From IMG/VR virus record IMGVR_UViG_3300031760_000008, positions 12,337 through 76,336 of that record: a stretch of DNA of 64,000 nt. One strand, 5' to 3'. The position numbers were made by a program, and so were the translations under genes. The notes under the pieces were generated by a model. It did no database searches. It saw only the letters and a program-made list of their open reading frames with translations, and was not told the DNA's origin. The DNA is from a virus. Its lineage: Duplodnaviria; Heunggongvirae; Uroviricota; Caudoviricetes. This document shows positions 1 through 27,882 of the stretch, in pieces. The first letter of the stretch is position 1. Each line of letters opens with the position of its first letter.

Positions 1-74
1 ACTACTACATACTTTCTTGAATCGTCATAATATCCATAGCTTAAAATGTCGTCTTTCTTAATCATATCACTCAT
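1..74 (-). CDS. hypothetical protein, 5' end only (continues beyond window start)
   Basis: Minus-strand ATG at 74 (MSDMIKKDDILSYGYYDDSRKYVV..) open to window edge; conserved promoter-like motif at 104-118 about 34 nt upstream. Confidence 0.35.
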   Translation of the reverse strand, partial: MSDMIKKDDILSYGYYDDSRKYVV

Positions 75-103
75 AATTTTCTACCTCCAACAAAAACTTA
101 TTT

Positions 104-118
104 CTAATAATATTTTAC
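104..118 (-). promoter_or_regulatory. conserved late-promoter-like motif copy (plus-strand ctaataatattttac)
   Basis: Member of 17+ copy family; 34 nt upstream of ATG at 74. Confidence 0.4.
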
Positions 119-177
119 TATAAAAAATAAAACTATATTTCACAATATAGTTTTATTTTCATATACATTTTTATAGA

Positions 178-855
178 TTACCATACTTGATTATGATATT
201 GATTATGGGTTCCTTTATTAATAGCTGTAATATGATTAATATTTTCAACTTCAGCAAATCCAACTTTATCTTTATTACTAACTTCGTATCTTGTACTATC
301 ATAAGGAAATTTAGTATGATATTCATATGAATGAACTTGAATTCCATCTATTGTTTGAATAATTTCAGCAGGCACAAGTTCAAGACCACATCCCGCAGGT
401 CTGACTACTTCTATAAGATCTCTAACTTTAGATAAATTAGCTGGGAAATAAATATATATTTTAACTTTATTTCCATCTCTTTGATATTCAATATTAAACA
501 TTGACAAAGCTTCAATTTTATCTATTTCACCTAAAGCATTAACAGATAAAGCTGTAGCAAGTCTCATACCTAGTTTAGATCCTCTATTCCTAATCATATC
601 AGGATAATGTTTAATTATAATTCTATTAGAATCATATGATTCTGAATAATCATATTTATATCCTACATATGAAGCAAGTAAAGGTAATAAATGATTTGGA
701 CAAGAATCAAAATCAATTAAACTTATCCAATAATCAGCATTTGTTTTAAAATGATTTATTAATAAATCAAATAATTTACAATATGCCTGTACATCTCTAC
801 TTTGTCTCATAATATAAGGTATAAATGTTTTACTTTCTAATACATTAGTTGACAT
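178..855 (-). CDS. hypothetical late protein (225 aa), follows C1 peptidase gene
   Basis: Long ORF, tightly packed with upstream gene (11 nt gap); no motif I can name. Confidence 0.45.
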   Translation of the reverse strand: MSTNVLESKTFIPYIMRQSRDVQAYCKLFDLLINHFKTNADYWISLIDFDSCPNHLLPLLASYVGYKYDYSESYDSNRIIIKHYPDMIRNRGSKLGMRLATALSVNALGEIDKIEALSMFNIEYQRDGNKVKIYIYFPANLSKVRDLIEVVRPAGCGLELVPAEIIQTIDGIQVHSYEYHTKFPYDSTRYEVSNKDKVGFAEVENINHITAINKGTHNQYHNQVW

Positions 856-866
856 TTATTTCTACC

Positions 867-1634
867 TCATTTCTTAAATCTACGTAATAACATATTTATA
901 AATCTTAATATTTTTTGCCATATAGTTTGATAAGTATCTATTGTATTTTCTTTTGTTGAAATAGCCCAAGCTGAATCAATAGGATAATCATAAGGAAGTA
1001 TAGCTTGACCTTTATCTCCCCAATATTTACCCCAGCTATTTTGAATTATGTAACCATAGGGATTATAACCACAAATTATAATCATATGATATCCTTTTAA
1101 TTCACCTTCAGGTTCTTTAATAATATAATTTAAATCATAATCTAAATCATTATAAACTGGAATTGAAATAGGTACTGGAGTATTTTGAAGAAGACACTTT
1201 TTTATTTCTTCTTCAGTATAAATTCTAGCATATGATTCTATTTTATATTTTTCAGCAATTGGTTTTAATTTATCTATATTCTCATCAACAATGTCTTTAA
1301 TTTCTTTCATTTCTTTATTGTGATCAAAATTATCTCTAGGAACATCTCCTATCTTTTGTAAAGTTTTTAATGCTTCTCTAGGATACATTCCTTGTTCTTG
1401 ATTATATGTTATAGGTCTATATCCATATATAAATCCTGTAGACATTTTTTCATTATTAAATTTTTCTAAAAATGTAGCTAAAGAGTGAGCTACACAAGAA
1501 TTAACAATACCTTGATCTTTAACATCAGATATTGCTAATTCATATTTCTCAGGAAATTTTGGAGCAGAAACTATTTTTGATTTAAACTTATAATCCCTTT
1601 TATCTGGTATCTCTTTCTTACTTCCGTAATACAT
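867..1634 (-). CDS. papain-like (C1A) cysteine peptidase, candidate lytic peptidase
   Basis: Catalytic signatures with papain spacing: 'QGIVNSCVAHS' (Gln19/Cys25 box), 'GYHMIIICGY' (His159 box), 'NSWGKYWGDKG' (Asn175-Ser-Trp box). Confidence 0.75.
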   Translation of the reverse strand: MYYGSKKEIPDKRDYKFKSKIVSAPKFPEKYELAISDVKDQGIVNSCVAHSLATFLEKFNNEKMSTGFIYGYRPITYNQEQGMYPREALKTLQKIGDVPRDNFDHNKEMKEIKDIVDENIDKLKPIAEKYKIESYARIYTEEEIKKCLLQNTPVPISIPVYNDLDYDLNYIIKEPEGELKGYHMIIICGYNPYGYIIQNSWGKYWGDKGQAILPYDYPIDSAWAISTKENTIDTYQTIWQKILRFINMLLRRFKK

Positions 1635-1657
1635 AAGACCACCTCCTTATATAAGCT

Positions 1658-2446
1658 TTAACTTATTGTTAGAATAGTTTCTATCTTAATTTTTTTATCA
1701 TGTAAACAATGCTCTACTTGTTCCATATTAACTAAGTTTTTATCTACAAATTCTATAACAATAAAGCCTACAATAGATCCTTCATTATTTTCTATAGCAA
1801 TTCCATATACAGCTTGAATATTTCTACTTAAAAAATATTCATACATTGTAGTATCTTTATCTTTTAATTCATTTATATCATCAATATAACATTTACCATC
1901 TTTTATTAAACTTTCACACCAGTATGATAAAAATGATCTAAATAAATTTTGAAAATCTGGCATTATACCAGCAAATCCAGGACCAGGACATTCATTAGTC
2001 ATAGACATTTTTAAAAAAGACAAGCCATTCATATCTCTTCCACCATTATGAAATCTAACTAATGCTACTCTAGCAGAATTAGTTTTTTGTTGAGTTCTTT
2101 TTAAACAAGCATTAATTTGAGCTTCTTTTTCTGATAACGTATTATTATCTTCTGCAGAAAGTGTATGACTTGTAACTCCATTTATAATATGTTTTGTTAA
2201 TTCTTGAAGTTGTTGTTGTAATAATTTTTGATTTTCTTGATTCTGTTCTATAACAGTTTTAAACATTTCATCACAACGTGCATCAGATTTATTACTATGT
2301 TTATTTGTAGTATCTATTAATTCTTTTTCTCTTTCAATAAATCTTCTTAAAGCTAAAATAGCAAATAGGACTAAAAATATCGCAGCTAATCCTAATACAC
2401 CAACTTCTAAATATGGTTTTATAAGGTCTAAAAATCCTACTTCCAC
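1658..2446 (-). CDS. membrane-anchored protein with coiled coil and C-terminal globular domain
   Basis: N-terminal hydrophobic helix (VGVLGLAAIFLVLFAILAL), QQQLQEL coiled segment, start overlaps stop of upstream gene. Confidence 0.5.
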   Translation of the reverse strand: MEVGFLDLIKPYLEVGVLGLAAIFLVLFAILALRRFIEREKELIDTTNKHSNKSDARCDEMFKTVIEQNQENQKLLQQQLQELTKHIINGVTSHTLSAEDNNTLSEKEAQINACLKRTQQKTNSARVALVRFHNGGRDMNGLSFLKMSMTNECPGPGFAGIMPDFQNLFRSFLSYWCESLIKDGKCYIDDINELKDKDTTMYEYFLSRNIQAVYGIAIENNEGSIVGFIVIEFVDKNLVNMEQVEHCLHDKKIKIETILTIS

Positions 2447-2685
2447 TACTCCACCTCCTGTTGTTCTTTTAATTCATTTAATTCAAGTTCTATATTTAAT
2501 AATCTTCCTTCAATTTTTTCAATTCTTTCTACATCTCTTTGAACAACCATATTCTGTTTCAATAATGTATATGAGCTGAATAATAGGTTAGATAACAGTA
2601 ATAAACCAGCAATAGTTCCTACTAAAAATATAAAACCATCAGATTGAATAAATTTTCTTAATCTTTCTTTTACCATACTAACCAC
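2446..2685 (-). CDS. small membrane protein, holin-like candidate
   Basis: 79 aa, one TM helix (FIFLVGTIAGLLLLSNLLF) followed by charged coiled-coil tail; promoter-like motif 2701-2711 just upstream. Confidence 0.45.
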   Translation of the reverse strand: MVSMVKERLRKFIQSDGFIFLVGTIAGLLLLSNLLFSSYTLLKQNMVVQRDVERIEKIEGRLLNIELELNELKEQQEVE

Positions 2686-2700
2686 CTCTTAGTCTTTCAA

Positions 2701-2711
2701 TAATATTTTAC
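2701..2711 (-). promoter_or_regulatory. conserved promoter-like motif copy
   Basis: taatattttac; 16 nt upstream of ATG 2685. Confidence 0.35.
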
Positions 2712-2770
2712 ATAGAAAAAGAGATAGAAATTTTCTATACGCTCTTTCTACCTCTTTTAATTTAATCTTA

Positions 2771-3055
2771 TTATACATTTTCACCATTTATATTTTGTAT
2801 TTGACTAGCAACTCCAGCCAATTCAGCTTCAATATTTGTAACTCTATTTGTTAAATTACTAATATTAGTATTGCTTGCATTTATAGAATTATTAATATTA
2901 CTAATATTTTGAGTATGGGTATTAACTGTATTCATTGTATTAACTAAATTAGAGACTGGAATATTAGTTGCTTCTAAAACATGACTATTATTTAAAGTCA
3001 TAATATTTCCAATATTTTGATTTTGTAATTGGATATCTTTATAAAAAGTTGCCAT
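2771..3055 (-). CDS. Asn-rich coiled-coil small protein
   Basis: 94 aa ORF, low-complexity N/T/S-rich heptad-like sequence, RBS aggaggtaa upstream. Confidence 0.4.
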   Translation of the reverse strand: MATFYKDIQLQNQNIGNIMTLNNSHVLEATNIPVSNLVNTMNTVNTHTQNISNINNSINASNTNISNLTNRVTNIEAELAGVASQIQNINGENV

Positions 3056-3068
3056 TTTAAATTACCTC

Positions 3069-5255
3069 CTATATCATATCTTCCATATAATCTTTTTCAA
3101 GTGATGAGCTATCATAATAAAAGTATTGTGTATTTAAATTTCTATATACTGCTATTGAAGTTTCATTATGTGTATAAGAAACTACAATATCACTAGTTAA
3201 TGGTGCTGTAAATTCCATTTCAACTAAACCTGTGATATAATCTATATGTCCTTTTCTAACTAAAACGTTATCACTATTATAAATATCACCGTTATTATTA
3301 TCTCTTAAAGTAGTTTGTCCATTGTTAATTCTTATTATAGCAGATCCTGGTAATATTGATGGATGTTCTAAATAAAAACTATATTTTAAATTAAGACTAG
3401 GATCAGGATCATCTAACATAGGAACTATTTGCTCATATAAACCTGTTAGTTGTTCTTTAGTAATTTCTTCTCCTTCATAATTTACATATTCAATAGGTTC
3501 TAGATCTACCATTAATATTCTACTATCTACATCAAGAATTGTTTCAATAACTTCTTTATAATTTATTAATGTATTGAAATTAACTTTCTCTAAAGAATAT
3601 TTATATCTCAAATTATTATTTATAGTTACTATTATATTTTGTAGTTCATCTCTTGATAAAGGAACTTTTGTAAAGAATGTTCCTCTTACTGTCCAAAAAT
3701 ATTTTTTAATTGATTCAAGATCCACAATAATTGATAAAGGTAATATTTTATAGTCATCTAAAGCTGTTATAATAGCATTAGAAAATGTTTCTATATCTTC
3801 ATCTTGTGCTACTTCAGATCTTAATATATATAATTTAACTACGAAACTATCCAAAGTTTCTATTTGACTTACTTTTTGCACACCAATGAATCCTGAGTGC
3901 TCATAATCACCATTGAAATATGCAGTGAAACAATCTAAATCATCTTCATCAACTCTACCATCTTGATTTGCATCTGCAAGTTGTTGTTGATATTCTGTTA
4001 AAGGATGAGCTTTTCTATCTTGAATAAATAATGCTACTGCATTCATATCATTTTCATCTATTATTTCACTATATACTACTTGACCATCAACTGGTTTAGA
4101 TGTTCTATCCATATTAACATTACCAATTGTCCAAGATACTTCCATACCAGGATCATTTGTTAAGTCTGTTGCTCTAACATTTGCTACTCCCCATTCTCTT
4201 AATGTAGCTCTTTCAAAATCAGCAAGTGTGATAAGAGTATCCATTGTATTTAAAAACTTAACTGAATTTTTTCTAGCTTCATCAGGAGTTTCTGGATCAT
4301 ATCCTTCTGAACTATCATAATTAGTAAAATGAATAAATCCACTAACATTATATACTGTATTTATATTAGATCCATCTCTGGCCCATATATTTCCAGTAAC
4401 TTTCTTTATAGTATTTTCATATATTTGGCCACTTTGACCTTTAGATAATAAATAAAATAATTTAAATCTATTTACATTAAAATTATTCCAATAATCTACT
4501 AATTCAATATAAGGTCTATCATTAACATCTACACCGAATTCAAATAATCTACCTACATTAGATGTTAAATAAATATTATCTCTTAATTCCCATACTTCAT
4601 TTTGATCGTCAATAAGAATAATATGATCTTGATCTACATTATCATCAGGTAAATAAATCCTATTATTTATTACATCATCAGCTGTATAATTGTATCCGTA
4701 AATTGAATGCCAAGGTCTTCCAGCTTCTGGATATGGATTAGCTGAAGTTCTAACAGGTGTTACAGGAATACCTTGAGTTAGAGTAACAACTGTTTCTAAT
4801 CCGTTATTATACATATTAGAGGGTAATTCATATGCTTTAGTTATATTACAATAAACGGTTTCATTATCCTCAGTTGCAAAAGTACAAAACATTGGTAATG
4901 TAGCAGCTTGAGTATAAGTATTAATAACATTAACTTGTACTTCAGCTGATTTGTACCATCTCATTTTATATCCAATTAATCTATAAATAGCTGCTGCATT
5001 TTTTCTTTGAGTAACAGAATCAGGATATACTTCTAAAGACTGCATATCTTGAGTATAAAATAACATATCACCTACAATAGCCATCAATTTAACTAATATC
5101 ATACCAGGATCATTTGTATCAGTACTTACCCATTTTTGAGTTATACCAGGTATAGAATTTATTAAATCGTCTAAAATATTGACATAATCTTTATCTGTAT
5201 AATCAATTCTTACAGCACTATAATCTTTCTTTTGAACTTGATTTATACTTGCCAT
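3069..5255 (-). CDS. baseplate J-like (gp6/gpJ family) protein with an internal dockerin-like Ca-binding repeat
   Basis: N-terminal 'DPGMILVKLMAIVGDMLFY..SVTQRKNAAAIYRLIGY' resembles baseplate J family; 'ADANQDGRVDEDDLDCFTAYFNG' matches the dockerin/EF-hand consensus; position after gp25-like gene. Confidence 0.65.
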   Translation of the reverse strand: MASINQVQKKDYSAVRIDYTDKDYVNILDDLINSIPGITQKWVSTDTNDPGMILVKLMAIVGDMLFYTQDMQSLEVYPDSVTQRKNAAAIYRLIGYKMRWYKSAEVQVNVINTYTQAATLPMFCTFATEDNETVYCNITKAYELPSNMYNNGLETVVTLTQGIPVTPVRTSANPYPEAGRPWHSIYGYNYTADDVINNRIYLPDDNVDQDHIILIDDQNEVWELRDNIYLTSNVGRLFEFGVDVNDRPYIELVDYWNNFNVNRFKLFYLLSKGQSGQIYENTIKKVTGNIWARDGSNINTVYNVSGFIHFTNYDSSEGYDPETPDEARKNSVKFLNTMDTLITLADFERATLREWGVANVRATDLTNDPGMEVSWTIGNVNMDRTSKPVDGQVVYSEIIDENDMNAVALFIQDRKAHPLTEYQQQLADANQDGRVDEDDLDCFTAYFNGDYEHSGFIGVQKVSQIETLDSFVVKLYILRSEVAQDEDIETFSNAIITALDDYKILPLSIIVDLESIKKYFWTVRGTFFTKVPLSRDELQNIIVTINNNLRYKYSLEKVNFNTLINYKEVIETILDVDSRILMVDLEPIEYVNYEGEEITKEQLTGLYEQIVPMLDDPDPSLNLKYSFYLEHPSILPGSAIIRINNGQTTLRDNNNGDIYNSDNVLVRKGHIDYITGLVEMEFTAPLTSDIVVSYTHNETSIAVYRNLNTQYFYYDSSSLEKDYMEDMI

Positions 5256-5282
5256 AAAACTCTACCTTTCTTTAATATCTAT

Positions 5283-5293
5283 TAATATTTTAC
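5283..5293 (-). promoter_or_regulatory. conserved promoter-like motif copy
   Basis: 28 nt upstream of ATG 5255 (baseplate J-like gene). Confidence 0.4.
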
Positions 5294-5295
5294 AT

Positions 5296-5697
5296 CTATT
5301 CAGAATATGGTTTATCTGGATTATCTTCAGAAGTTATTTCTAAATTATATTGATTTATTTGACCAGTTTCTTTAATTTCATACATTATATAAATATTAAC
5401 AATTTGATCTTCGAATTTAATTATAATGTCATCTCCTCTAACTATTATTCTAGGTTCATATTTATCAATAGCTTGCATTATATCTTCTTTTAACAAAGGT
5501 TCAATTATTACTCCATTATATCTAAATATTCTATCTAAAAGGAAACAACCATATTCAGGATCTCCTAATAATTCTCCTGGTCGAGTTCTTAATAATAACC
5601 CTAAACATTCATTTATAGATTTTGTATTTTGAGAAAATTTTACATCTCTAGATGTTCTATCTACTATTTGTGGAAATGAAAAAGTGGATTGTCTCAT
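5296..5697 (-). CDS. baseplate wedge protein, gp25/GPW family
   Basis: 133 aa; 'LLLRTRPGELLGDPEYGCFLLDRIF' matches gp25/W signature; adjacent to baseplate J-like gene. Confidence 0.75.
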   Translation of the reverse strand: MRQSTFSFPQIVDRTSRDVKFSQNTKSINECLGLLLRTRPGELLGDPEYGCFLLDRIFRYNGVIIEPLLKEDIMQAIDKYEPRIIVRGDDIIIKFEDQIVNIYIMYEIKETGQINQYNLEITSEDNPDKPYSE

Positions 5698-5711
5698 ATT
5701 TTTCCTCCTTA

Positions 5712-7709
5712 TTATAATATTCTTCTAGCTCCCCAATATTTTTTAACATAATAATCTTCAGATAATGAAGAAATTTTAACAACATCCCCTGTACGAGGTG
5801 CATGTATAAAATTACCATCACCTACATAGATACCAACGTGTCCAGTAAAGTGAACCAAATCACCTTTCTGTAAATGATTTTTATCAACACCTGTACCATC
5901 AGTTCTTTGACCATCTGATACTCTATGAAGTTTATATCCAAAATGCTTATAAACATAATAGGTTAATCCAGAGCAATCAAAAGTGTTAGGACCTGTAGCA
6001 CCCCAAACATATTTACAGCCTAAAAATGTTTTAGCATAGTTTACAATATCATCACCTGTAGTCTGTCCAGATGTTTTTCTAACAGTATTAGTAACTATTC
6101 CTTGTACCTTCTTACCAAAATATGGTAAAGGATCTATTCTTGTAGATAAACTTGAAGGACTAGGCCATACAGCCCCTAAATGTAATCCTATATGTAAGTG
6201 AGTTCCTGTAGAATTACCAGTTGATCCCATATATCCTAAAGTATCTCCGGCCTTTACTTTATCTCCAACTTTATATGTAGGTTCCTTACATAAATGCATA
6301 TAAACAAAATAATGATTAGGATTTTTATCCATTTTTATCGCAATACAATTTCCTTGACCAGGACCAGCACCTGTTAGTCCTCTTACAACTCCTCCACCGT
6401 TGACATGAGCTACAGTACCATTACCTACAGCAATGACTGCACATCCTTCTTTACCAGAAATATCTAATCCTTTATGAGCTCCACCACCTGAATATCCTTG
6501 ATAATTATTAGGACTGTTATATTTAAAAGAATAAGGTAAAGCCTTTCTATTTTCTCCCCAGAAACAGCTAATATAATCTGTTGAAGGAACAGGCCAGAAA
6601 TATTCACCATATTCTGGAATATGTTTTAAACCTTCTAATATAGTTAAATCTATAAAGGTTAAAGCACTTAATTTACCTTGTTTTTCTATTTCAACTAAAT
6701 AATCATATGTAGTTTTTCTTCTTGAACTATATGCGGAAGTTCTACGTTTCCAATAATCATAATATTCTTTCAGTTGAGTCATAATATCTTTTCCGTTTTT
6801 ACTAATCTTAGCTGCTTCTGTTAAACATCCTGTTATAACTCCATTAACTCCATTACCATATTGATTCATAATATCCATACAGAATATTAAAATACCTGGA
6901 TTAGTAATACCATATGGCTCATCCATTAATTGATCTAAAGACACTTTAGTTTCTTGTTTTGCAAAAGATATTTGAGTTTCTTTTCCTTTTGCAGATACTA
7001 GCATTTTATGAGCTCCTGAAGTTATAGCTTGATTATAAACAGTTATATCCCAATTATTTCTTTTTGGAGAAGAACTTCCATTTTTTAAAGATGCTTGTAA
7101 ATCAGAAACAATGTTCAAAGATTGATCAGTCCAATTAGATAACCAATTAGAGTCAGCTGCTGCAATTTGATATAAAACATCAAAAGCTCTACAACCATGC
7201 CATTGTATTATTCCAATAGACCAAGCTCCTTTATCATTTGAAGTAACATTTCCAAATTGACCTTCAGTAATACCATTAGGCCAATTATTTCTATTAAGAC
7301 CTACCTCGTTTTCTACTATAATAGGCATTGCTAAATCTAATATAGCATCAGTACTTATTCCATACTCTCCATCAAAGCCTCCTATTCCAGCTGCTTCTGC
7401 ATTTTTTCCTAAAATTATAAAAGAATTATTAGAATTCTCAATGTAACTACCATATATAGGATCTCCTACTACTAAACCAGATACAAGAGATACAGCCCAT
7501 GGTAAAGAATAAAAAAGAGGACTTGATTTTTTAGACGAAGAATCTAATTTTCTATACTCTTCTACATTTGATTCAATTAAACCATAATGTACTTCAGGAA
7601 TATATATTTGATATCTATTTAATCCTTCTGGATCATCTGTAAGGCTATCATTAACTACATAACCTTTATATATACTATTATAATAACTATCTCTATTAAT
7701 TATATCCAT
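5712..7709 (-). CDS. tail-associated peptidoglycan hydrolase with M23 peptidase and NlpC/P60 domains
   Basis: 'HKGLDISGKEG..GSTGNSTGTHLHIGLH' = M23/LytM motifs; C-terminal 'FDCSGLTYYVY...GDLVHFTGHVGIYVG..FIHAP' = NlpC/P60 Cys-His-His; N-terminal 'IIQWHGCRAFD' possible glycosidase-like domain. Confidence 0.8.
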   Translation of the reverse strand: MDIINRDSYYNSIYKGYVVNDSLTDDPEGLNRYQIYIPEVHYGLIESNVEEYRKLDSSSKKSSPLFYSLPWAVSLVSGLVVGDPIYGSYIENSNNSFIILGKNAEAAGIGGFDGEYGISTDAILDLAMPIIVENEVGLNRNNWPNGITEGQFGNVTSNDKGAWSIGIIQWHGCRAFDVLYQIAAADSNWLSNWTDQSLNIVSDLQASLKNGSSSPKRNNWDITVYNQAITSGAHKMLVSAKGKETQISFAKQETKVSLDQLMDEPYGITNPGILIFCMDIMNQYGNGVNGVITGCLTEAAKISKNGKDIMTQLKEYYDYWKRRTSAYSSRRKTTYDYLVEIEKQGKLSALTFIDLTILEGLKHIPEYGEYFWPVPSTDYISCFWGENRKALPYSFKYNSPNNYQGYSGGGAHKGLDISGKEGCAVIAVGNGTVAHVNGGGVVRGLTGAGPGQGNCIAIKMDKNPNHYFVYMHLCKEPTYKVGDKVKAGDTLGYMGSTGNSTGTHLHIGLHLGAVWPSPSSLSTRIDPLPYFGKKVQGIVTNTVRKTSGQTTGDDIVNYAKTFLGCKYVWGATGPNTFDCSGLTYYVYKHFGYKLHRVSDGQRTDGTGVDKNHLQKGDLVHFTGHVGIYVGDGNFIHAPRTGDVVKISSLSEDYYVKKYWGARRIL

Positions 7710-7728
7710 ATATTATTTCCCTTCTTTA

Positions 7729-9306
7729 TTATCCTAATGACATTCCTGGTATATAAGATGATGGTCTAGAACTAGCAGGTTCTTTATCCCATTCAACTTT
7801 AGATATAGATATAGATGATTGACTAATTACATTACTTTCATTAGTATCATTAGTTTTATTTGTTTCAGTTGTTAAATCAATAGTATCTTTTCCTGTTGAT
7901 TTTTCTTGAGCTTTAGCATTTGATACAGGAGCTGCTCCTATATCTCTTATACGTAATAACTTTATCTCTGAAACAAATGTACCATTAGATGCAATTCTAT
8001 CTGTACATCCTTGTAACATATAAATTCCTGCGGTTCTACTATCTGACTCTAAAATTCTAGGTTTAATTGTAAATTCTGCACATAATGGTACATCAGCTGG
8101 AATACCTATAGTTGTTAACACTGCATCATACATTTCATATACATCAGCATTTCTAAGATAGTTATTTTTAACAGCATTTAAAAATTCCTCAGAAGCATTA
8201 TCTCCAGCTGCTTTTTTAATTTCAGAAGCTCTCTTATTAGCAGCTTTTTGTATTAAATATAATCTTAAATCTACTTGAGGATTCCACTTAACAACAATAT
8301 CAGGTATACCTTCTTTACCCCATTCAAAAACATGATTTATTTTAACATTATTAGCACTTGAATCAGCTGGACAAATATATGTTATATGTATTGTTTTATT
8401 ATCAGCCTCATCAGTAACATACATTAAATAATGAGGAACTTCTCTATAAGGCATATCTTCTTTATATTTTTGTTTATCCTCATCACTCTTAGACATATGA
8501 GACTCTAATAAATCTCTACAGTATATCCAAGGAGATTGACTAGATACTGCAGATGTAGTAATCTCAGGAGCATCTTTTCTTATATCATCATCAACTTCAA
8601 TTTTATAATTATAATCATTTGCATGATGAGTTAAATTACCCACTAGATGACTAGGTTGATTAGAACTAATGCCATAATAACTCCATAAAACAGATTCTAC
8701 TATATCAATTAAATTAATACCTTTTTCCTCACCTTCTCCTTTGAATTCAGGAATAGATGTTGAAAAGTCAGCATCGATAGCTAACATTGTAGTTCCTTCA
8801 AATGTATATTCAGAAATACCAGTAGACCAATCTATTTCAGATTCTGCATTGGTTAAGAAAAATTCATATTTTGGAGAAACTAATGTAGTATCATCTGGTA
8901 CATTATATCCATATTGAATAAATCCTCTTAGTCTTTTATTGGAATCATTCATGTCAACTCTCATTGCATGTGCTATTAATTCATCTAATAGTTCAACTTT
9001 ATCCTGAGTATTCTGACCATAATCAAAAGGATCATATTTTATTACTAGTTCAAAATCATTAACAGTTCCAGCTCCTTTTTTATTAAAAGTAAGTCCTGCT
9101 ATCATATTTTCCTTTTTATTATCAGAAGTAGAATCAAATGTAATAGGCTCAGTTTCACCTATTTGGAATCTAATCCATGTAGAATAAATAGGACCTTGCT
9201 TATTTAACATATTAATTATAGCTGTAATCATATTATCATATTTAGCAGCCATCTTTTTAGGAGTCGTGGTAGCTGATATATTTTTAAAATTTCTACTAGT
9301 TGCCAC
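7729..9306 (-). CDS. baseplate/tail structural protein (525 aa)
   Basis: Long ORF in baseplate module between LysM protein and tail lysin; overlaps upstream gene by 11 nt. Confidence 0.45.
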   Translation of the reverse strand: MATSRNFKNISATTTPKKMAAKYDNMITAIINMLNKQGPIYSTWIRFQIGETEPITFDSTSDNKKENMIAGLTFNKKGAGTVNDFELVIKYDPFDYGQNTQDKVELLDELIAHAMRVDMNDSNKRLRGFIQYGYNVPDDTTLVSPKYEFFLTNAESEIDWSTGISEYTFEGTTMLAIDADFSTSIPEFKGEGEEKGINLIDIVESVLWSYYGISSNQPSHLVGNLTHHANDYNYKIEVDDDIRKDAPEITTSAVSSQSPWIYCRDLLESHMSKSDEDKQKYKEDMPYREVPHYLMYVTDEADNKTIHITYICPADSSANNVKINHVFEWGKEGIPDIVVKWNPQVDLRLYLIQKAANKRASEIKKAAGDNASEEFLNAVKNNYLRNADVYEMYDAVLTTIGIPADVPLCAEFTIKPRILESDSRTAGIYMLQGCTDRIASNGTFVSEIKLLRIRDIGAAPVSNAKAQEKSTGKDTIDLTTETNKTNDTNESNVISQSSISISKVEWDKEPASSRPSSYIPGMSLG

Positions 9307-9709
9307 TTAATATACCTCCTTCATTATATAATGATAATATAGGAGGAATTCTTAAATAAGTACCAACCGGAACATCAAAAGGATCTATTATATAATTAGC
9401 TATTGCTATAATCCACCAATATTTAGGAGTTCCATAAAAACTATAAGCTATTAAATCTAATCTATCTTTTTCTGATTCAGTAACAGTATAATATTGATCT
9501 GAACTAGATTCATCTATAAATTTTTGAGTCCAATTTTCATGAAAATACACACCTTTATCTTTATCATATAATCTTCGTAATCTAGAATATCTACTATTAT
9601 TTTTATATTCTTTAGGTACATAATATTGTAGAGGTTCAAATACATCTCTTAATTCTTCTAGATAACTTGGTGAAACTTTATTAGTTCTTCTTACAGTATA
9701 TTTACTCAT
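9296..9709 (-). CDS. LysM-like tail protein (gpX/XkdP-like)
   Basis: 'DRLDLIAYSFYGTPKYWWIIAIANYI..DVPVGTYLRIP' resembles LysM fold; position after tape measure typical of myovirus protein X. Confidence 0.55.
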   Translation of the reverse strand: MSKYTVRRTNKVSPSYLEELRDVFEPLQYYVPKEYKNNSRYSRLRRLYDKDKGVYFHENWTQKFIDESSSDQYYTVTESEKDRLDLIAYSFYGTPKYWWIIAIANYIIDPFDVPVGTYLRIPPILSLYNEGGILSGN

Positions 9710-19901: not shown

Positions 19902-20618
19902 TTAACCATTAGTTAAGTTAGTTGATTGAGTACCAATGTAACTTGGATCATTATGTGTTGTATATGAAACATCTTGTTTAACTTTCCAAGCATTGTAATC
20001 AGGTGTAGCAAATGGTGTTGGTTTATCATAGTAAATTGTTGTTGAGAATAATCTTTGATCTGGTTGATATCTACTAAATTGTCCTTGATTATATTCATTA
20101 ATCCAACAACCCCATAGTCTCCAAGAAATTTGTCTTGTTCCGTTAGGAGCCCATTTATATAGTAAACCATTTTGTGCATAATATTCTTTAAATCCTATTT
20201 TATCATTTTGAATATTATGTGCCATTGAATACCAAGCTAGCAAAATTTGTTCTGTTAACATACCAATATAATCATTGAATGTTATTGCAGAAGTTCCAAC
20301 ATTTGGAGATCCTGCATAATGAACTGTTCCATTACCTGTTTTAATAGATATAGGATCTACAGAAAGTTGTGGTCCTGCATAATCTCTTAGAGATAATGCT
20401 AAAGCTTCTGTAGCTTCATCTTTACCACAAACTAATCTACCGTTCATATCATATAGATCTCTTGTAAATTTAACTTTAAGAATAAAGTCTGAAGATCTAC
20501 CAGGTTCGAAGTCTGCTTTATGATTTAAAATATATGTAGTACCTAAATATCTTGAAGTATCTACCATTCCTTTTTGTTCATTATCTCCAAAATTTGTATC
20601 AGCAAATATTCTTCCCAT
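19902..20618 (-). CDS. tail tube protein (candidate)
   Basis: 238 aa ORF immediately downstream of sheath gene (2 nt gap); followed by intrinsic terminator. Confidence 0.5.
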   Translation of the reverse strand: MGRIFADTNFGDNEQKGMVDTSRYLGTTYILNHKADFEPGRSSDFILKVKFTRDLYDMNGRLVCGKDEATEALALSLRDYAGPQLSVDPISIKTGNGTVHYAGSPNVGTSAITFNDYIGMLTEQILLAWYSMAHNIQNDKIGFKEYYAQNGLLYKWAPNGTRQISWRLWGCWINEYNQGQFSRYQPDQRLFSTTIYYDKPTPFATPDYNAWKVKQDVSYTTHNDPSYIGTQSTNLTNG

Positions 20619-20620
20619 AA

Positions 20621-22204
20621 TTATTCTTCACCTCCTGTTATTTCTACGGTTCCGTATGCAACATTAAGATAAATTTGAATTTTCTTAATTGTAGGTGTAA
20701 CAAATACGTCTAATTGAATTTTTAATGTTCTTGGATCTTCATTAGTACTTACATTATAAATATTGTAATCTTGTACTGCGCCTTCTGATGTCATTCTATC
20801 TAAAAATTCACTAGATCTTAATGAAAATTCTTCAAATGCTTCTGTATTATTATATTGATATTGAAGTTCAGTTCCTAAATTATAAACGAATCTTCTTATT
20901 TCTATAATAGCTAAATCAACACTTGATTCTTGGAATGCGTTTATTTCTCCTAATTCTGATTCAGGTAATAATAATGTACTATTTCCTGAAATTACATATT
21001 TTCCTGAATTATGCATTTTCATAATTGGGTTTATATTTACTCTTGTATCTGATTGCCATCTTTCTGCTAAATCAGAACCAATTTCGAATTCAGGTTTAAT
21101 TATATTTGATATTTGTCCATTAGAAATACCTGCTTTAGGAGTATATACAGGTCTTCCTTTACTTAAATCTCTTCCTAATACTGTTAAGAAAATATATGAT
21201 GGTGGCATCCAAGCTTGATCAGCTCCTACTTGCATCCAAGCCCATGGAGCACATATACTTGCACTTGGAATTAATTGACCATCACTTAATTGTTGATATC
21301 CTAATCCCTCTGCAAGTCCTTGTTGATCTTCTGCATCTGTTCCTAAAGGTAAATCTACAAGAGCTCTACAATCTTGTCTTATTAATGAAAGATTTATCAT
21401 TGCTGTAGCTATATCTTTATTTTCATCCATATTTAAATCTGTATATCCACCTGATGTTATGAATTTTGGTTGATATAAAATTTTATCTTTAATGAAATCA
21501 TATGTTTTTGGTAAAGCAGCTCTTACATTATTTTCATCAAAATCTTCTCCATCATGTAAATATTGATTCTTAATAAGAGGTAAATTAAATTGATCTGGAT
21601 CTGTATTAAGTACAGTTACATTAATTCTTTCTAGTGTTGTGTTAAAATTACTATCACTAAATGTATCTATTAATAATTGGTTGATTGTTCTTTGTCTATC
21701 TGTATCTGGTGTATCTGCTGGAAATTCAGGTATTCTAAATAATTTATGTTTCTCAAGTAATGTTGATTTTAGATATACTTCTAACCAATAAGCAGTTGTT
21801 GTAATTTTTAATGAAATGTTGATATCATTACCAAATGTTCCACCAAATTTTTCTTCTATTCTTAAAAGATCAATTGGATCTTCACCAGCTGTTGTAAAAA
21901 TATGAAATGCTGATGTTACACCTTTTTGTTCTTCATCACTATCTTGGTTTACACAAGCAATTCTTCTGAATAAAACAGGAATTCCTGAATTTAATAAACC
22001 AGCTACATAATTAAATGTAGGTGATCCTTCAGGTCCTTTTGCACCACAGACATTTTTGAATTCATCTAAAGATGTGAAAGCATATACTTTTGTATAATCA
22101 CCTGTTATAGTAGTTCCTGGTACATATGCCCAGTTATCTATAAATGTTGCAGCATTTCTAAGTTCTCTAGATAAATTATTTGTAGTTATTTCTATAAATG
22201 CCAT
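20621..22204 (-). CDS. tail sheath protein
   Basis: 527 aa, position and size typical; sequence character of contractile sheath proteins. Confidence 0.65.
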   Translation of the reverse strand: MAFIEITTNNLSRELRNAATFIDNWAYVPGTTITGDYTKVYAFTSLDEFKNVCGAKGPEGSPTFNYVAGLLNSGIPVLFRRIACVNQDSDEEQKGVTSAFHIFTTAGEDPIDLLRIEEKFGGTFGNDINISLKITTTAYWLEVYLKSTLLEKHKLFRIPEFPADTPDTDRQRTINQLLIDTFSDSNFNTTLERINVTVLNTDPDQFNLPLIKNQYLHDGEDFDENNVRAALPKTYDFIKDKILYQPKFITSGGYTDLNMDENKDIATAMINLSLIRQDCRALVDLPLGTDAEDQQGLAEGLGYQQLSDGQLIPSASICAPWAWMQVGADQAWMPPSYIFLTVLGRDLSKGRPVYTPKAGISNGQISNIIKPEFEIGSDLAERWQSDTRVNINPIMKMHNSGKYVISGNSTLLLPESELGEINAFQESSVDLAIIEIRRFVYNLGTELQYQYNNTEAFEEFSLRSSEFLDRMTSEGAVQDYNIYNVSTNEDPRTLKIQLDVFVTPTIKKIQIYLNVAYGTVEITGGEE

Positions 22205-22226
22205 TTTAGTATCTCCTTTCTAATAT

Positions 22227-23372
22227 TTATTTTACTAATTTTTTATTAGCAATACTTGAACATTCTAATTTATTTTCCTTAGTTAATTTAGTAATTAAAT
22301 TAGCTGTTGTTGAAGTTTTACTTTCTAATAAACCTTTTATATTAGCAATATCATATCTTGTATAGAATTTTCCTTCTTGAACTTTCTTAGCTAATAATTC
22401 AGTTCTAATAGATTTATCAAGTTTATTTGTTAGTATTCCTTCTATTTTTAATCCTTCTTCTGTTTTTGTTATATTTTCTACTTTATATCCTTTTATAGAT
22501 TTAGTATTTTCTTTATAATATTCTGTTAAAGCTTTTTCAAAAGATTCTTCTATAAACTCTGAATCATCTTCTACTTCTTCAGTTGTTTCTTCTTCAGGAA
22601 CTTCTACTACTTCTTCACTAGCTATTTCTTCAGCTTCATCAGATGTTTTTGGTTCTTCTGTTTCATCTACAACTTCAACATTTTCACCTTCATCTGTTTT
22701 GACTTCTACTTCTGTTCCATCTTCAGAAACTTCTATTTCAACATTCTCTTCAACTTTTTTAGATTCATTTTTTATATCTAAAAAAGCTGATAGAAAACTT
22801 ATATCTTCATCAGGTACTTTTTCAATGATTTCATGAATTTCTTCATCTGATTTAGCCTTTTTTAAATCATCAAAAACATTCTTAATTTTATCTATTCTGG
22901 CCATATCATTTAAAGTTAGAGGTTTCCAATCTTTAGCTTCTTCTGTGATTTTATCACATTCACATTTTTCTTTTCCACAATCTTCACATGGTTTTTTAGA
23001 TTCCTCTAAATCTTCCTCATCAGCTTCTGTTTCTCCATCTACGATTTCATCTATAGTAGGAACTTCCTCAACAGGCTCTTCAGTTACTTCTGGTTCTACT
23101 ACTTCTTCAGGAATTATTGTTTCATCTCCTTCAACAGGTAATTCTACAACTGCTACTCCTTCTTCAGGAACTTCAGCTACTATAGCATCCTCTACAGGAG
23201 CTTCTGTAACATCCTCAGTATCTGTAACAATTACTGTTGCTTCAGGAGTTTCAACAATAGTAGCTCCATTATCATCAACTGAAACGTCAATTGATTCTTT
23301 TTTAATTTCTTTAGACTCATCAAGTTTTAATTTACCTTGAATAGCTAACATTGTTGCTTCTGTTAAATTCAT
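22227..23372 (-). CDS. highly acidic Glu/Val/Pro-repeat protein with CxxC..CxC cluster
   Basis: 381 aa; long low-complexity acidic tracts (PEEVVEPEVTEEPVEEV), 'CEDCGKEKCECDK'; variant promoter motif 23397-23410. Confidence 0.5.
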   Translation of the reverse strand: MNLTEATMLAIQGKLKLDESKEIKKESIDVSVDDNGATIVETPEATVIVTDTEDVTEAPVEDAIVAEVPEEGVAVVELPVEGDETIIPEEVVEPEVTEEPVEEVPTIDEIVDGETEADEEDLEESKKPCEDCGKEKCECDKITEEAKDWKPLTLNDMARIDKIKNVFDDLKKAKSDEEIHEIIEKVPDEDISFLSAFLDIKNESKKVEENVEIEVSEDGTEVEVKTDEGENVEVVDETEEPKTSDEAEEIASEEVVEVPEEETTEEVEDDSEFIEESFEKALTEYYKENTKSIKGYKVENITKTEEGLKIEGILTNKLDKSIRTELLAKKVQEGKFYTRYDIANIKGLLESKTSTTANLITKLTKENKLECSSIANKKLVK

Positions 23373-23396
23373 AATACTTTTCTCCTTTCATTTATT

Positions 23397-23410
23397 TAAT
23401 AATATTTTAA
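23397..23410 (-). promoter_or_regulatory. variant promoter-like motif copy (taataatattttaa)
   Basis: 25 nt upstream of ATG 23372. Confidence 0.3.
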
Positions 23411-24159
23411 TTTAACACTGTAAAAATATCTTTATTACTATCTAAATGCTCTCGAACGGCTTGAATTTCAGCATTTCCCTCAGCAAGCAATGTTTGTCCA
23501 TCTAACTCGAATTTTGAAGATCTAGAAGTATATTTACTTCTTATTCTTCCTAAAATTACTTTAGTCATTCCTAAAGCTAATTTTCTAAGTTGAGTTTCCC
23601 AATATTGCTCTCTGATATCTTCAACTGAATAATATTCAGGTTTAAAATTAATAGTTACATAACTTGGTATATTAGGATTAGCATAAACATATAATTTTCT
23701 ATTTGGCTTATCCCATTGAAATTCCATATCAGTTGCAAGTATATTTAAATTTCTCTTAACTGATATTGCATTCATATATTCTTCCATGTTATACATTCCT
23801 GTTACATTCATTAAATCAATAGCAGGCATTTGAAAAGGAACTCCTGTTAAAACACTATCTGATCCTCTCCAAACTGATTCAATAGAATCAATATTATATT
23901 TTGAAAGATCTATACATTGTGCATATGGAACTGTTATTTGATATAAATCAGTCATGTAATGTACTAATTCTTCGAAAGCTTGTTCAACTATTTGTTTAAT
24001 TTGTTCAGGATTTAATTCAAGATCAAGTACTTGAGCTCCTAATTGATTTTCAATATATTGAACAATCTTTTTCATTCTTTTCTTCATACGAGGATAAGAA
24101 CGAGGTTTTACAAGATCTTGGTCATTAAATATAGGATCTAATTCTTCTTTATCTGCCAT
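23407..24159 (-). CDS. neck / head-tail joining protein candidate
   Basis: 250 aa ORF between head-side genes and sheath, as for T4 gp13-15 class proteins; no diagnostic motif. Confidence 0.4.
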   Translation of the reverse strand: MADKEELDPIFNDQDLVKPRSYPRMKKRMKKIVQYIENQLGAQVLDLELNPEQIKQIVEQAFEELVHYMTDLYQITVPYAQCIDLSKYNIDSIESVWRGSDSVLTGVPFQMPAIDLMNVTGMYNMEEYMNAISVKRNLNILATDMEFQWDKPNRKLYVYANPNIPSYVTINFKPEYYSVEDIREQYWETQLRKLALGMTKVILGRIRSKYTSRSSKFELDGQTLLAEGNAEIQAVREHLDSNKDIFTVLN

Positions 24160-24182
24160 TCTTATATCCTCCTATTTATTAA

Positions 24183-24644
24183 TTAATTTGATAAATGTTC
24201 ATAATCTGTAACATTTCCTTGTTTATCTAAAGTTACTTTAAATGATATATTATCAGCAACTACATATTCTTCTCGTTCATTTATTCTAACATTTTCATAT
24301 TGTGTTTCATCTAAAAAGAATTTATAATCAGAATGTTCAGATGATGTATCTTTTTCAAAAGATATAAAACTATATCCTTGTTCTTCGTTTAAATAATTAA
24401 ATGTTATTCTAGCAAAATCATCTGGAGTTAAAGAACCTGGAGTTTGAGTTATCTCTTCTAAAGATTCTTTTATTTTAGTATAATAAGCTAATCTTTCAGA
24501 AGATGTAACTGTTAATTTAACACTATCTCCTGGTTTTAATATATCTTGAAAATTAACATTATAATATCTAATAGCTTGATCTGTATTTGTTGTATTTTCT
24601 ATAGTTATATCTACTGGTTCTTCTAAAGATGTTTCATATTCCAT
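24183..24644 (-). CDS. small structural-associated protein, paralog 3 of tandem triplet
   Basis: N-terminus 'MEYETSLEEPVDITIENTTNTDQAIRYYNVNFQDILKPGDSVKLTVTSSERLAYYT' paralogous to 24674..25246 and 25389..25616. Confidence 0.5.
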   Translation of the reverse strand: MEYETSLEEPVDITIENTTNTDQAIRYYNVNFQDILKPGDSVKLTVTSSERLAYYTKIKESLEEITQTPGSLTPDDFARITFNYLNEEQGYSFISFEKDTSSEHSDYKFFLDETQYENVRINEREEYVVADNISFKVTLDKQGNVTDYEHLSN

Positions 24645-24673
24645 TATTAAGTTCTCCTTTCATTAAAATTTAA

Positions 24674-25246: not shown

Positions 25247-25388
25247 TATTACTCCCCTCTCTGAGATATAATAAAGTTGAAGGCTATCTTAAATACTAGT
25301 ATCTGTGAGGTAGATATACAGACTTGGTATATCAAAATAGCCCTCAAATATATTAAGATTTATTTATAATTCTTAATATCATATAAAA

Positions 25389-25616: not shown

Positions 25617-25676
25617 ACCTCCTTTTTAAAATTTTTGACAGTGTTTGAATCTGTCTATCTCTTATAATTTCTGAGT

Positions 25677-25739: not shown

Positions 25740-25800
25740 TAAAGAGTTTAAAAGAGATATATGTAAATATTACCTACCTCAAGGAATATTACTATTCCTA

Positions 25801-25811: not shown

Positions 25812-25817
25812 CCAAAT

Positions 25818-27880: not shown

Positions 27881-27882
27881 AT

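What the first reader, a model, noticed from the sequence alone, without database searches (positions are those of the whole stretch)
3900..3990. Additional dockerin-like calcium-binding repeat inside the baseplate J-like protein
Within 3069..5255 the segment ADANQDGRVDEDDLDCFTAYFNG matches the same dockerin/F-hand consensus. The motif is therefore shared by at least two baseplate proteins, which argues against a chance match and for a common calcium-dependent function of the baseplate.
Basis: seen in the sequence. Interest (0 to 1): 0.5.

Follow-up and report, generated by a model that had tools for sequence, protein, structure and literature searches.

The report
Dockerin module inside phage baseplate protein
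The flagged motif is real: it is the second half of a complete calcium-binding "dockerin" docking module inserted into the gp6/J-type baseplate protein of an uncultured T4-like phage. Related phages carry one to four such modules at the same spot, so the module is probably an exposed adhesion device, but its binding partner is unknown.

Summary
Confirmed and extended. ADANQDGRVDEDDLDCFTAYFNG is aa 427-449 of the 728-aa ORF 3069..5255 on the minus strand (DNA 3909..3977). It is not chance: 6 strict motif hits in the window against 0.014 expected.

It is not an isolated repeat. It is the second F-hand of a full type I dockerin module (aa 378-449). A profile of the insert hits solved dockerins (E 3.7e-9). 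An AlphaFold model of the insert (pLDDT 88.7) has dockerins as its top 16 PDB matches.

The first calcium loop is split by a 14-aa beta-hairpin but keeps all ligand residues. This is why the window's copy scores below Pfam's cut-off.

The carrier is a true T4 gp6 / baseplate-J homologue (Foldseek E to 4e-22, directly after a gp25 gene). The module is an insertion: orthologues at 36-45% identity lack it, and closer relatives carry 1-4 diverged modules there.

Calcium-ligand positions are near-invariant, helix surfaces are hypervariable, and the insert evolves faster than the rest of the protein. No cohesin was found in the window.

Best reading: an exposed, multivalent, calcium-dependent docking or adhesion module on the baseplate, probably aimed at a host-surface partner. 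That function is inferred, not shown. I found no published description of this arrangement.

The parts
3069..5255 (-). 728-aa baseplate wedge protein, homologue of T4 gp6 / P2 gpJ / Mu gp47, that carries the dockerin insert
   Evidence: ORF. AF2 model pLDDT 88.9. Foldseek against PDB: T4 baseplate 5iv5_A/B, 5hx2, T4 gp6 crystal 3h2t, KP1, P1, Mu and phi812 baseplates, E down to 4.4e-22. Profile hit to 9gtp 'Baseplate protein J-like', E 3.8e-6. tblastn to annotated baseplate J of Bacillus phage HSE3. No Pfam Baseplate_J hit.
4146..5255 (-). N-terminal conserved gp6/J core (aa 1-370), ending in the TNDPG anchor
   Evidence: This is the region shared by all 1888 library relatives; the best stretch is typically aa 16-372. 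Alignments A3 and A4.
3861..4145 (-). Accessory insert (aa 371-465): dockerin module plus its entry and exit strands
   Evidence: Replaced by a 0-10 aa linker in orthologues P0124, P0128, P0131, P0135 and P0138. Close relatives hold 1-4 modules here.
3909..4124 (-). Type I dockerin module core (aa 378-449)
   Evidence: Pfam Dockerin_1 at 16.5-19 bits, below the 22.9 cut-off. Profile A5 against PDB dockerins: E 3.7e-9 (4fl4_A) and 1.9e-8 (8x39). AF2 model of the insert pLDDT 88.7. Foldseek top 16 hits are all dockerins, with TM-score (target-normalised) up to 0.84.
4047..4121 (-). First F-hand calcium loop (aa 379-403): N379, N381, D383 ... I399, D400, D403, an atypical split loop
   Evidence: Ligand positions 1, 3, 5, 9 and 12 are retained and near-invariant in 67 unique homologous modules.
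4065..4106 (-). 14-aa beta-hairpin (aa 384-397) inserted between loop positions 5 and 7 of the first F-hand
   Evidence: AF2 strands 384-389 and 392-397, block pLDDT 82-96. Absent from canonical relatives, which read GDINQDGxID. Loop length is bimodal: 27 canonical and 27 with the 14-aa insert.
3939..3974 (-).
   Evidence: Regex hit. D428, N430, D432, G433 and D439 are invariant or near-invariant.
3915..3947 (-). Helix 3 of the dockerin (aa 437-447), the putative partner-contact face
   Evidence: AF2 helix 437-447. Surface positions p10, 11, 14, 17, 18 and 21 are hypervariable among homologues.
3069..3860 (-). C-terminal gp6/J region (aa 466-728)
   Evidence: Conserved in orthologues with and without the insert. 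Foldseek hit to the T4 gp6 C-terminal crystal 3h2t.
5296..5697 (-). gp25-type baseplate wedge protein immediately upstream (synteny gp25 then gp6)
   Evidence: Pfam GPW_gp25 E 1.8e-11; PHROG baseplate wedge subunit.
10587..12503 (-). 638-aa protein of the same gene cluster with three dockerin modules of the same subtype
   Evidence: Pfam Dockerin_1 E 7.9e-26, 4 stretches. hhalign to the J insert: probability 96.6%, E 6e-10. Local HMM gives 6 F-hand hits.

Best explanation
What it is. The motif is the second calcium loop of a complete type I dockerin module (aa 378-449). The module has two F-hand calcium sites and three helices. It has been inserted as an accessory domain into a permissive loop of the phage's gp6/J baseplate wedge protein, between the conserved N-terminal core and the C-terminal region. 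In this lineage the first calcium loop carries a 14-residue beta-hairpin that packs with the entry and exit strands, yet it keeps every ligand residue.

How it most likely works. If gp6 stoichiometry holds as in T4 (about 12 copies per baseplate), the baseplate displays about a dozen dockerins, and relatives with arrays display up to four times as many. The most likely role is a calcium-stabilised, solvent-exposed protein-docking or adhesion device. It would latch the baseplate onto a cohesin-type or other proteinaceous partner on, or attached to, the host cell surface, supplementing receptor binding by avidity.

Shown: domain identity, the insertion, conservation of ligand residues, variable copy number, fast and surface-focused divergence.
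Inferred: calcium binding, exposure on the virion, the existence and location of a partner.
For: - Domain identity: Pfam Dockerin_1 over profile positions 11-56 of 57. All 16 orthologous inserts hit Dockerin_1, best E 4e-14. The profile hits solved dockerins at E 3.7e-9. The fold matches dockerins only among confident hits.
- Carrier identity: T4 gp6 and other J-type baseplate proteins, directly after a gp25 gene.
- Insertion: orthologues at 36-45% identity have a short linker at the same site, and P0125 has an unrelated ~100-aa insert there.
- Copy number among full-length homologues: 0 modules in 120, 1 in 76, 2 in 43, 3 in 5, 4 in 2. Such size variation is hard to reconcile with a buried position.
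- Arrays are old and position-specific: paralogous modules are 33% identical, positional orthologues 61-63%.
- Selection pattern: calcium-ligand positions are near-invariant (D403 and D439 in 67/67, D383 and D432 in 66/67), while helix-surface positions p10, 11, 14, 17, 18 and 21 are hypervariable. The insert is 47% identical on average to the window's, against 76% for the N-terminal part and 63% for the C-terminal part.
- No phage-encoded cohesin was found. Pfam on 56 window ORFs of at least 100 aa plus 2 downstream ORFs gave none, and precomputed Pfam for neighbours in L001-L003 and L007 gave none. This favours an external partner.
Against: - No partner was identified and the host is unknown. 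The MAG labels 'uncultured Bacilli' (twice) and Desulfovibrionaceae (once) are weak evidence.
- Only 64 kb of a roughly 140-220 kb genome was examined, so a phage-encoded cohesin could lie elsewhere or be too divergent for Pfam.
- T4 gp6 forms the inner ring of the baseplate, so exposure towards the host is not guaranteed. Model coordinates could not be superposed on the T4 baseplate.
- Many non-cellulosomal dockerins have no known cohesin partner (my own knowledge).
- The window's copy is below Pfam's gathering score, and its first loop is non-canonical, so that site may not bind calcium.
- Fast divergence is also what relaxed constraint on a decoration would produce.
Confidence: 0.45

Rival explanations
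1. Virion-assembly docking. The dockerins bind a phage-encoded partner, a divergent cohesin-like beta-sandwich, and so attach accessory proteins such as fibres or the 638-aa multi-dockerin protein to the baseplate. This would use the cohesin-dockerin principle as a plug-and-socket for building the tail tip.
For: - Two proteins of the same tail/baseplate gene cluster carry the same dockerin subtype.
- Position-specific conserved module types would suit specific partners.
- Many neighbouring structural proteins have no recognisable domains, so a cryptic cohesin cannot be excluded.
- The gene just downstream is a coiled-coil or fibre-like protein.
Against: - There is no Cohesin Pfam hit, even at E up to 1, in 10 unannotated or weakly annotated tail/baseplate-cluster proteins, nor in the other window ORFs.
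- Copy number varies from 1 to 4 between otherwise syntenic phages, which is awkward for a fixed-stoichiometry assembly joint.
- Orthologous baseplates assemble without the insert.
Confidence: 0.2
2. Partner-less calcium-dependent decoration. The module only binds calcium, and stabilises or rigidifies the baseplate periphery or senses divalent cations. It has no protein ligand.
For: - The calcium-ligand residues are the most conserved feature.
- The hairpin variant packs the module against its own entry and exit strands, as in a rigid pedestal.
- No partner was found.
- Dockerin-like modules without cohesins are common (my own knowledge).
Against: - A purely structural role does not explain tandem arrays of up to four diverged, position-specific modules.
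- It does not explain divergence concentrated on the helix faces that contact cohesins in characterised dockerins.
- Orthologues do without the insert.
Confidence: 0.2
3. Chance resemblance, or a decayed non-functional remnant of an acquired domain.
For: - The window's copy scores below Pfam's gathering threshold (16.5-19 against 22.9 bits).
- Its first loop is interrupted.
Against: - The motif is about 400-fold enriched over shuffles.
- The profile reaches E 3.7e-9 against solved dockerins.
- The model is confident and dockerin-like.
- Ligand residues are under evident purifying selection across 67 unique modules, including the hairpin-bearing form.
Confidence: 0.03

Closest known systems
Type I dockerin modules of cellulosomal enzymes (Pfam PF00404; e.g. 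C. thermocellum Xyn10B dockerin 1ohz/2ccl, Cel48S 2mte, 4fl4, double-dockerin 8x39)
   Same: Two tandem F-hand segments with D/N ligands at loop positions 1, 3, 5, 9 and 12. A three-helix fold. Significant profile and fold matches. Tandem double-dockerins also have a precedent in 8x39.
   Different: - It is internal to a virion protein rather than at the C-terminus of a secreted enzyme.
- The first loop is split by a 14-aa hairpin.
- The two repeats are dissimilar, so the symmetric 'dual binding mode' is unlikely.
- It carries a family-specific linker motif PLTxYQxKLAD.
- No cohesin partner is known.
Ruminococcus flavefaciens atypical dockerins (groups 1-6)
   Same: Precedent for non-canonical calcium-loop lengths (11 or 13 residues) and asymmetric repeats with single-binding mode (PMC2930009, PMC5429695). 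5m2o_B is among the best fold matches, with TM-score (query-normalised) 0.50.
   Different: The insertion here is much longer (14 aa, forming a hairpin) and lies in the first loop. The context is a phage baseplate.
T4 gp6 / P2 gpJ / Mu gp47 / TssF baseplate wedge proteins
   Same: Overall fold, N-terminal core and position after the gp25 gene.
   Different: None of the matched solved baseplate proteins is described as carrying a dockerin. Sequence identity is 7-16%. Pfam Baseplate_J is not detected.
Accessory adhesion domains on phage particles (Ig-like/BACON/CBM decorations; knowledge-based comparison)
   Same: An optional, fast-evolving, copy-number-variable surface module added to a conserved structural protein.
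   Different: A different fold and, by homology, a calcium-dependent protein-protein docking chemistry rather than glycan binding.
'Dockerin type 1' proteins auto-annotated in uncultured Myoviridae (UniProt A0A8S5M688, A0A8S5NQH0 in BFVD)
   Same: A dockerin fold in phage proteins from metagenomes.
   Different: They are shorter proteins (211 and 391 aa), not shown to be J/gp6 homologues, and no study of them was found.

Membership tests
Dockerin type I (PF00404) | Pfam model match above the gathering score (22.9 bits) | tested here: not met
   The window copy scores 16.5 bits in the whole protein and 19.0 bits as the isolated insert. Orthologous inserts with a canonical first loop pass: best E 4e-14, all 16 of 16 hit at E up to 0.1, and most homologues carry precomputed PF00404. 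The shortfall is explained by the hairpin in loop 1.
Dockerin type I (PF00404) | Homology to experimentally solved dockerins by profile search | tested here: met
   Profile A5 against PDB: 4fl4_A E 3.7e-9, 8x39 1.9e-8, CelD 6e-7, 1daq/2mte 8e-7, 1ohz 4.7e-5.
Dockerin type I (PF00404) | Two tandem F-hand segments (12-residue calcium loop plus helix) joined by a linker helix | tested here: met
   The second segment is canonical (aa 428-449). The first (aa 379-412) has ligand positions 1, 3, 5, 9 and 12 in place but a 14-aa insertion after position 5. Helices at 401-412, 421-427 and 437-447.
Dockerin type I (PF00404) | Dockerin three-helix fold | tested here: met
   AF2 model of the insert, pLDDT 88.7. 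The Foldseek top 16 PDB hits are all dockerins, probability 0.95-1.0, TM-score (target-normalised) 0.36-0.84 and highest for single-module targets. E-values are weak (0.04-0.5), as expected for a domain of about 60 aa.
Dockerin type I (PF00404) | Binds two calcium ions | not testable with these tools
   Only conservation of ligand residues could be shown.
Dockerin type I (PF00404) | Binds a cognate cohesin module | tested here: inconclusive
   No Cohesin Pfam hit in the window ORFs or in neighbours. The rest of the phage genome and the host were not available.
Dockerin type I (PF00404) | Typical context: terminal module of a secreted enzyme or scaffoldin | tested here: not met
   The module is internal (aa 378-449 of 728) in a virion baseplate protein.
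Baseplate J / T4 gp6 / TssF wedge proteins | Pfam Baseplate_J match | tested here: not met
   No hit at E up to 1.
Baseplate J / T4 gp6 / TssF wedge proteins | Fold similarity to solved gp6/J proteins within baseplates | tested here: met
   Foldseek: KP1 9f4a E 4.4e-22, T4 5iv5_B 2.1e-20, P1, Mu, phi812, CIS and pyocin baseplates, and the gp6 crystal 3h2t at 1e-5. Sequence profile hit to the 9gtp J-like protein, E 3.8e-6.
Baseplate J / T4 gp6 / TssF wedge proteins | Gene order: gp25-like immediately upstream, I/gp7-like downstream | tested here: met
   gp25 at 5296..5697. The P2-I-like protein at 178..855 scores marginally above its cut-off (21.2 against 20.6 bits). Three extra genes lie between J and I.
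Canonical EF-hand pair | Helix-loop-helix with an entering helix; Pfam EF-hand models | tested here: not met
   EF-hand_1 and EF-hand_5 reach only E of about 0.09. The loops are preceded by strand or coil rather than an entering helix, which makes them F-hands.

The most novel reading that the evidence does not exclude
A widespread clade of uncultured ~200-kb T4-like phages (GC about 27%, perhaps of low-GC Bacillota) uses arrays of dockerins on its baseplate to plug into cohesin modules displayed on the host surface, such as anchoring scaffoldins of cellulosome- or amylosome-like systems. This would be the first case of a virus exploiting the cohesin-dockerin system as its receptor interface. 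The module number and the helix-face sequence would set host range.
Probability: 0.2. Interest if true: 0.8.

Novelty: new variant of a known kind. Interest (0 to 1): 0.5.

Why it matters
Dockerins are the textbook high-affinity, calcium-dependent plugs of cellulosomes. Finding them as 1-4-copy, fast-evolving inserts in the gp6/J baseplate protein of hundreds of metagenomic phage contigs points to a so far undescribed type of phage adhesion or assembly module.

If the partner is a host-surface cohesin, three things would follow. It would define a new receptor class for phages of anaerobic Firmicutes. It would give a sequence-readable host-range determinant. It would offer ready-made orthogonal docking pairs for phage engineering.

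If the partner is phage-encoded, it would show cohesin-dockerin logic reused to build a virion.

Tried and rejected
- The + strand reading of the given coordinates has only stops; the feature is on the minus strand.
- PHROGs gave no family for the 728-aa or 638-aa proteins.
- tblastn against cultured-phage genomes: the J protein gave only two distant N-terminal hits (Bacillus and Streptococcus myophages, 26% identity), and the 638-aa protein gave none. No cultured relative is therefore available.
- Cohesin search by Pfam gave nothing (neighbours). Caveat: the sweep lists only 25 families, with the weakest listed hit at E 5.2e-4.
- Host inference from MAG titles was ambiguous: two 'uncultured Bacilli', one of them a 220-kb contig that is essentially the phage itself, and one Desulfovibrionaceae on a 2.6-kb contig that is probably mis-binned. 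The sample accessions were not found in the literature library.
- Five literature searches for dockerin together with phage, baseplate, tail fibre, receptor-binding protein or virion found no description of dockerins in baseplate proteins. The two phage papers that mention dockerin concern an unrelated CBM-like model and a BLAST remark.
- I could not reach model coordinates, so burial or exposure and calcium geometry could not be measured.
- I considered recent tandem duplication or slippage as the source of copy-number variation. I rejected it because paralogous modules are only 33% identical.
Full report
**1. The observation**

The window's genes in this region all lie on the minus strand. 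The 728-aa ORF occupies 3069..5255. The peptide ADANQDGRVDEDDLDCFTAYFNG is its residues 427-449, encoded at 3909..3977. The + strand of the quoted coordinates is not coding.

A strict F-hand pattern occurs six times in all six reading frames of the 64-kb window. Five hits are in the 638-aa ORF 10587..12503 and one is here. Residue shuffling of all minus-strand ORFs expects 0.014 hits. The chance of one hit in a shuffled 728-aa protein is 0.0015.

**2. What the motif belongs to**

Pfam aligns aa 400-447 to positions 11-56 of the 57-position Dockerin_1 model. The score is 16.5 bits, or 19.0 bits for the isolated insert, against a gathering score of 22.9.

The reason for the shortfall shows in alignments with homologues. 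Most relatives have a textbook two-repeat dockerin: GDINQDGxIDxxDxxxLxxYLADPxxxPLTxYQxKLADxNQDGxVDxxDLxCLxxYL. In the window's lineage the first loop reads GNVNMD[RTSKPVDGQVVYSE]IIDEND. A 14-residue segment has been inserted after loop position 5.

Further evidence that this is a dockerin:
- All 16 representative orthologous inserts hit Dockerin_1, best E 4e-14.
- A profile of these inserts finds solved dockerins: 4fl4_A at 3.7e-9, the C. thermocellum double-dockerin 8x39 at 1.9e-8, and CelD, Cel48S and Xyn10B dockerins.
- An AlphaFold2 model of the insert has pLDDT 88.7. It shows three helices at insert residues 36-47, 56-62 and 72-82.
- In that model the extra segment forms a beta-hairpin (residues 18-24 and 27-33) that pairs with the entry strand (5-11) and exit strand (96-102).
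- The 16 best Foldseek PDB matches are all dockerins, with probability 0.95-1.0 and TM-score up to 0.84 normalised to the target. Their E-values are weak (0.04-0.5), as expected for so small a domain.

**3. The carrier protein**

Pfam and PHROGs do not recognise the rest of the protein. Other evidence identifies it:
- A 99-sequence profile hits the 'Baseplate protein J-like' chain of 9gtp, E 3.8e-6.
- The full-length AF2 model (pLDDT 88.9, pTM 0.72) matches T4 baseplate chains of gp6 length in 5iv5 and 5hx2, and the T4 gp6 crystal 3h2t.
- It also matches the equivalent proteins of phages KP1, P1, Mu, phi812, phiCD508 and several contractile injection systems, with E down to 4.4e-22.
- The gene follows a gp25 homologue.
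- It lies in a T4-like module: a gp5-slot M23+NlpC/P60 hydrolase, weak gp53-like and tube-initiator-like proteins, and a T4_baseplate protein. A gp23 capsid protein and a gp21-type protease lie elsewhere in the window.

It is a genuine gp6/J wedge protein.

**4. The dockerin is an accessory insertion**

An exhaustive search found 1888 relatives. Their shared region is typically aa 16-372, plus the C-terminal part.

Orthologues at 36-45% identity (P0124, P0128, P0131, P0135, P0138) join TNDP.. directly to the ..KLYI strand with a 0-10-residue linker. P0125 has an unrelated insert of about 100 aa at the same place.

With a module HMM, the full-length homologues collected carry:

| Modules | Proteins |
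|---|---|
| 0 | 120 |
| 1 | 76 |
| 2 | 43 |
| 3 | 5 |
| 4 | 2 |

. Protein lengths step through about 720, 790, 880 and 964 aa.

The arrays are not recent slippage products. Modules within one protein are 33% identical, whereas modules at the same array position in different phages are 61-63% identical.

Gene order around the gene is conserved between a one-module phage (L001) and a four-module phage (L007).

**5. Selection pattern**

Across 67 unique first modules, the calcium-ligand positions are almost invariant.

| Loop | Position | Residues (of 67) |
|---|---|---|
| 1 | p1 | N or D, 66 |
| 1 | p3 | N, 62 |
| 1 | p5 | D, 66 |
| 1 | p9 | D or N, 64 |
| 1 | p12 | D, 67 |
| 2 | p1 | D, 64 |
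| 2 | p5 | D, 66 |
| 2 | p6 | G, 67 |
| 2 | p12 | D, 67 |

This holds in the hairpin-bearing variants too. By contrast, helix-surface positions p10, 11, 14, 17, 18 and 21 take 6-7 or more different residues each. From my own knowledge, positions 10, 11, 17, 18 and 22 contact cohesin in characterised type I dockerins.

Loop 1 comes in two main lengths: canonical in 27 unique modules and with the 14-aa insert in 27.

The insert as a whole diverges faster than its carrier. Mean identity to the window's protein is 47% for the insert, 76% for the N-terminal part and 63% for the C-terminal part.

**6. The second dockerin protein**

The 638-aa protein has three dockerin modules (Pfam E 7.9e-26; six F-hand hits with the local HMM). 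Its C-terminal module aligns to the J-insert profile with 96.6% probability, E 6e-10. The alignment includes the family-specific linker (..YLDDP...LSPIQKSRADINRDG..). The two proteins therefore share one phage-specific dockerin subtype.

No other ORF in the window scores. The 638-aa gene sits between the presumed tape-measure gene and a tube-initiator-like gene. Its location in the virion is not established.

**7. Partner and host**

No Cohesin family hit was found in any of these:
- the six proteins;
- ten unannotated or weakly annotated tail/baseplate-cluster proteins scanned at E up to 1;
- the precomputed annotations of neighbouring genes in four related contigs.

Only 64 kb of a roughly 140-220 kb genome was examined.

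The host is unknown. Relatives occur in MAGs labelled 'uncultured Bacilli' (one of them a 220-kb contig that is essentially the phage) and, on a 2.6-kb contig, Desulfovibrionaceae. The nearest cultured J proteins are from Bacillus and Streptococcus myophages at 26% identity. GC content is 26-30% across the window.

**8. Mechanism**

By homology, dockerins are calcium-stabilised plugs that bind cohesin beta-sandwiches. Several features are what one expects of an exposed interaction module and not of a core structural element:
- an optional insert at a site that tolerates 0-336 extra residues;
- a carrier protein present, by analogy with T4 gp6, in about 12 copies per baseplate;
- old, position-specific module types;
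- conserved metal ligands together with hypervariable helix faces.

I therefore favour a multivalent calcium-dependent adhesion or docking function directed at a partner outside the virion, most simply a host-surface protein (confidence about 0.45).

The rivals are:
- docking of a phage-encoded, unrecognised cohesin-like protein during tail assembly (0.2);
- a partner-less calcium-dependent stabilising decoration (0.2);
- chance resemblance or a decayed remnant (0.03).

That the feature is a dockerin module inserted in a gp6/J protein I hold at about 0.9.

**9. Comparison with what is known, and novelty**

Atypical calcium-loop lengths (11 or 13 residues) and asymmetric, single-binding-mode dockerins are documented in Ruminococcus flavefaciens (PMC2930009, PMC5429695). 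Tandem double-dockerins are documented in C. thermocellum (8x39). A 14-residue hairpin inside the loop, and a location inside a phage baseplate protein, are not.

BFVD contains auto-annotated 'Dockerin type 1' proteins from uncultured Myoviridae, so databases have registered dockerins in phages. Five full-text searches found no study of them in tails or baseplates. The two phage papers that mention the word concern other matters.

I class this as a new variant of a known kind: a known domain and a known carrier in a new combination, with a new loop architecture.

**10. Verdict**

Interest is moderate (0.5). It would rise sharply if a host-surface cohesin partner were demonstrated.

Noticed in passing
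window 867..2685 (-): A papain-family cysteine protease (255 aa, Peptidase_C1 E 3.7e-11) and two small transmembrane/coiled-coil proteins (262 aa, 79 aa) are wedged between the gp6/J gene and the P2-I-like gene (178..855). The arrangement is conserved in related contigs L001 and L007. This is unusual content for the middle of a baseplate operon; it might be a lysis or virion-protease cassette.
   Followed up: partly
window 2771..3055 (-): A 94-aa Asn-rich coiled-coil protein lies directly downstream of the J gene. In the four-dockerin relative L007 the same slot holds a 257-aa protein with a weak Phage_fiber_rpt hit, so this may be a short fibre that varies together with the J insert.
   Followed up: partly
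window 10587..12503 (-): A 638-aa protein with three dockerin modules (about aa 126-184, 336-404 and 523-601) of the same subtype as the J insert. The rest of the protein has no recognisable domain, and tblastn found no homologue in cultured phages.
   Followed up: partly
window 5712..7709 (-): A 665-aa protein in the gp5 (spike) slot combines Peptidase_M23 and NlpC/P60 peptidoglycan hydrolase domains. This is consistent with a host that has a thick cell wall.
   Followed up: no
window 30323..36073 (-): A cluster of seven tRNA genes: Gln, Cys, Trp, Tyr, Ser (two) and Pro.
   Followed up: no
window 16.8-64 kb; ORFs not individually assigned, except T4_baseplate at 16844..17650: The Pfam sweep shows a T4-like core (gp23 capsid, S77 prohead protease, T4_baseplate) and two NUMOD4/HNH_3 homing endonucleases. 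It also shows cREC_REC, HAD_SAK_2 and NTP_transf_2 domains (of the RNA-repair 'Swiss army knife' type). Other hits are a Band_7/flotillin protein, GT2 glycosyltransferases, a UDP-glucose dehydrogenase and a DUF285 protein.
   Followed up: no
protein P0125 (745 aa, 40% identical orthologue), at the position equivalent to window aa 371-465: The same loop of the J protein holds an unrelated insert of about 100 aa, not dockerin. Other relatives reach 1,000-1,680 aa. The site is a general hotspot for accessory domains.
   Followed up: partly
whole window 1..64000: GC content is 26-30%, with uniformly negative GC skew. Nearly all ORFs of at least 100 aa are on the minus strand. The closest contigs are 105-220 kb metagenome assemblies, and INPHARED holds no cultured relative.
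   Followed up: partly
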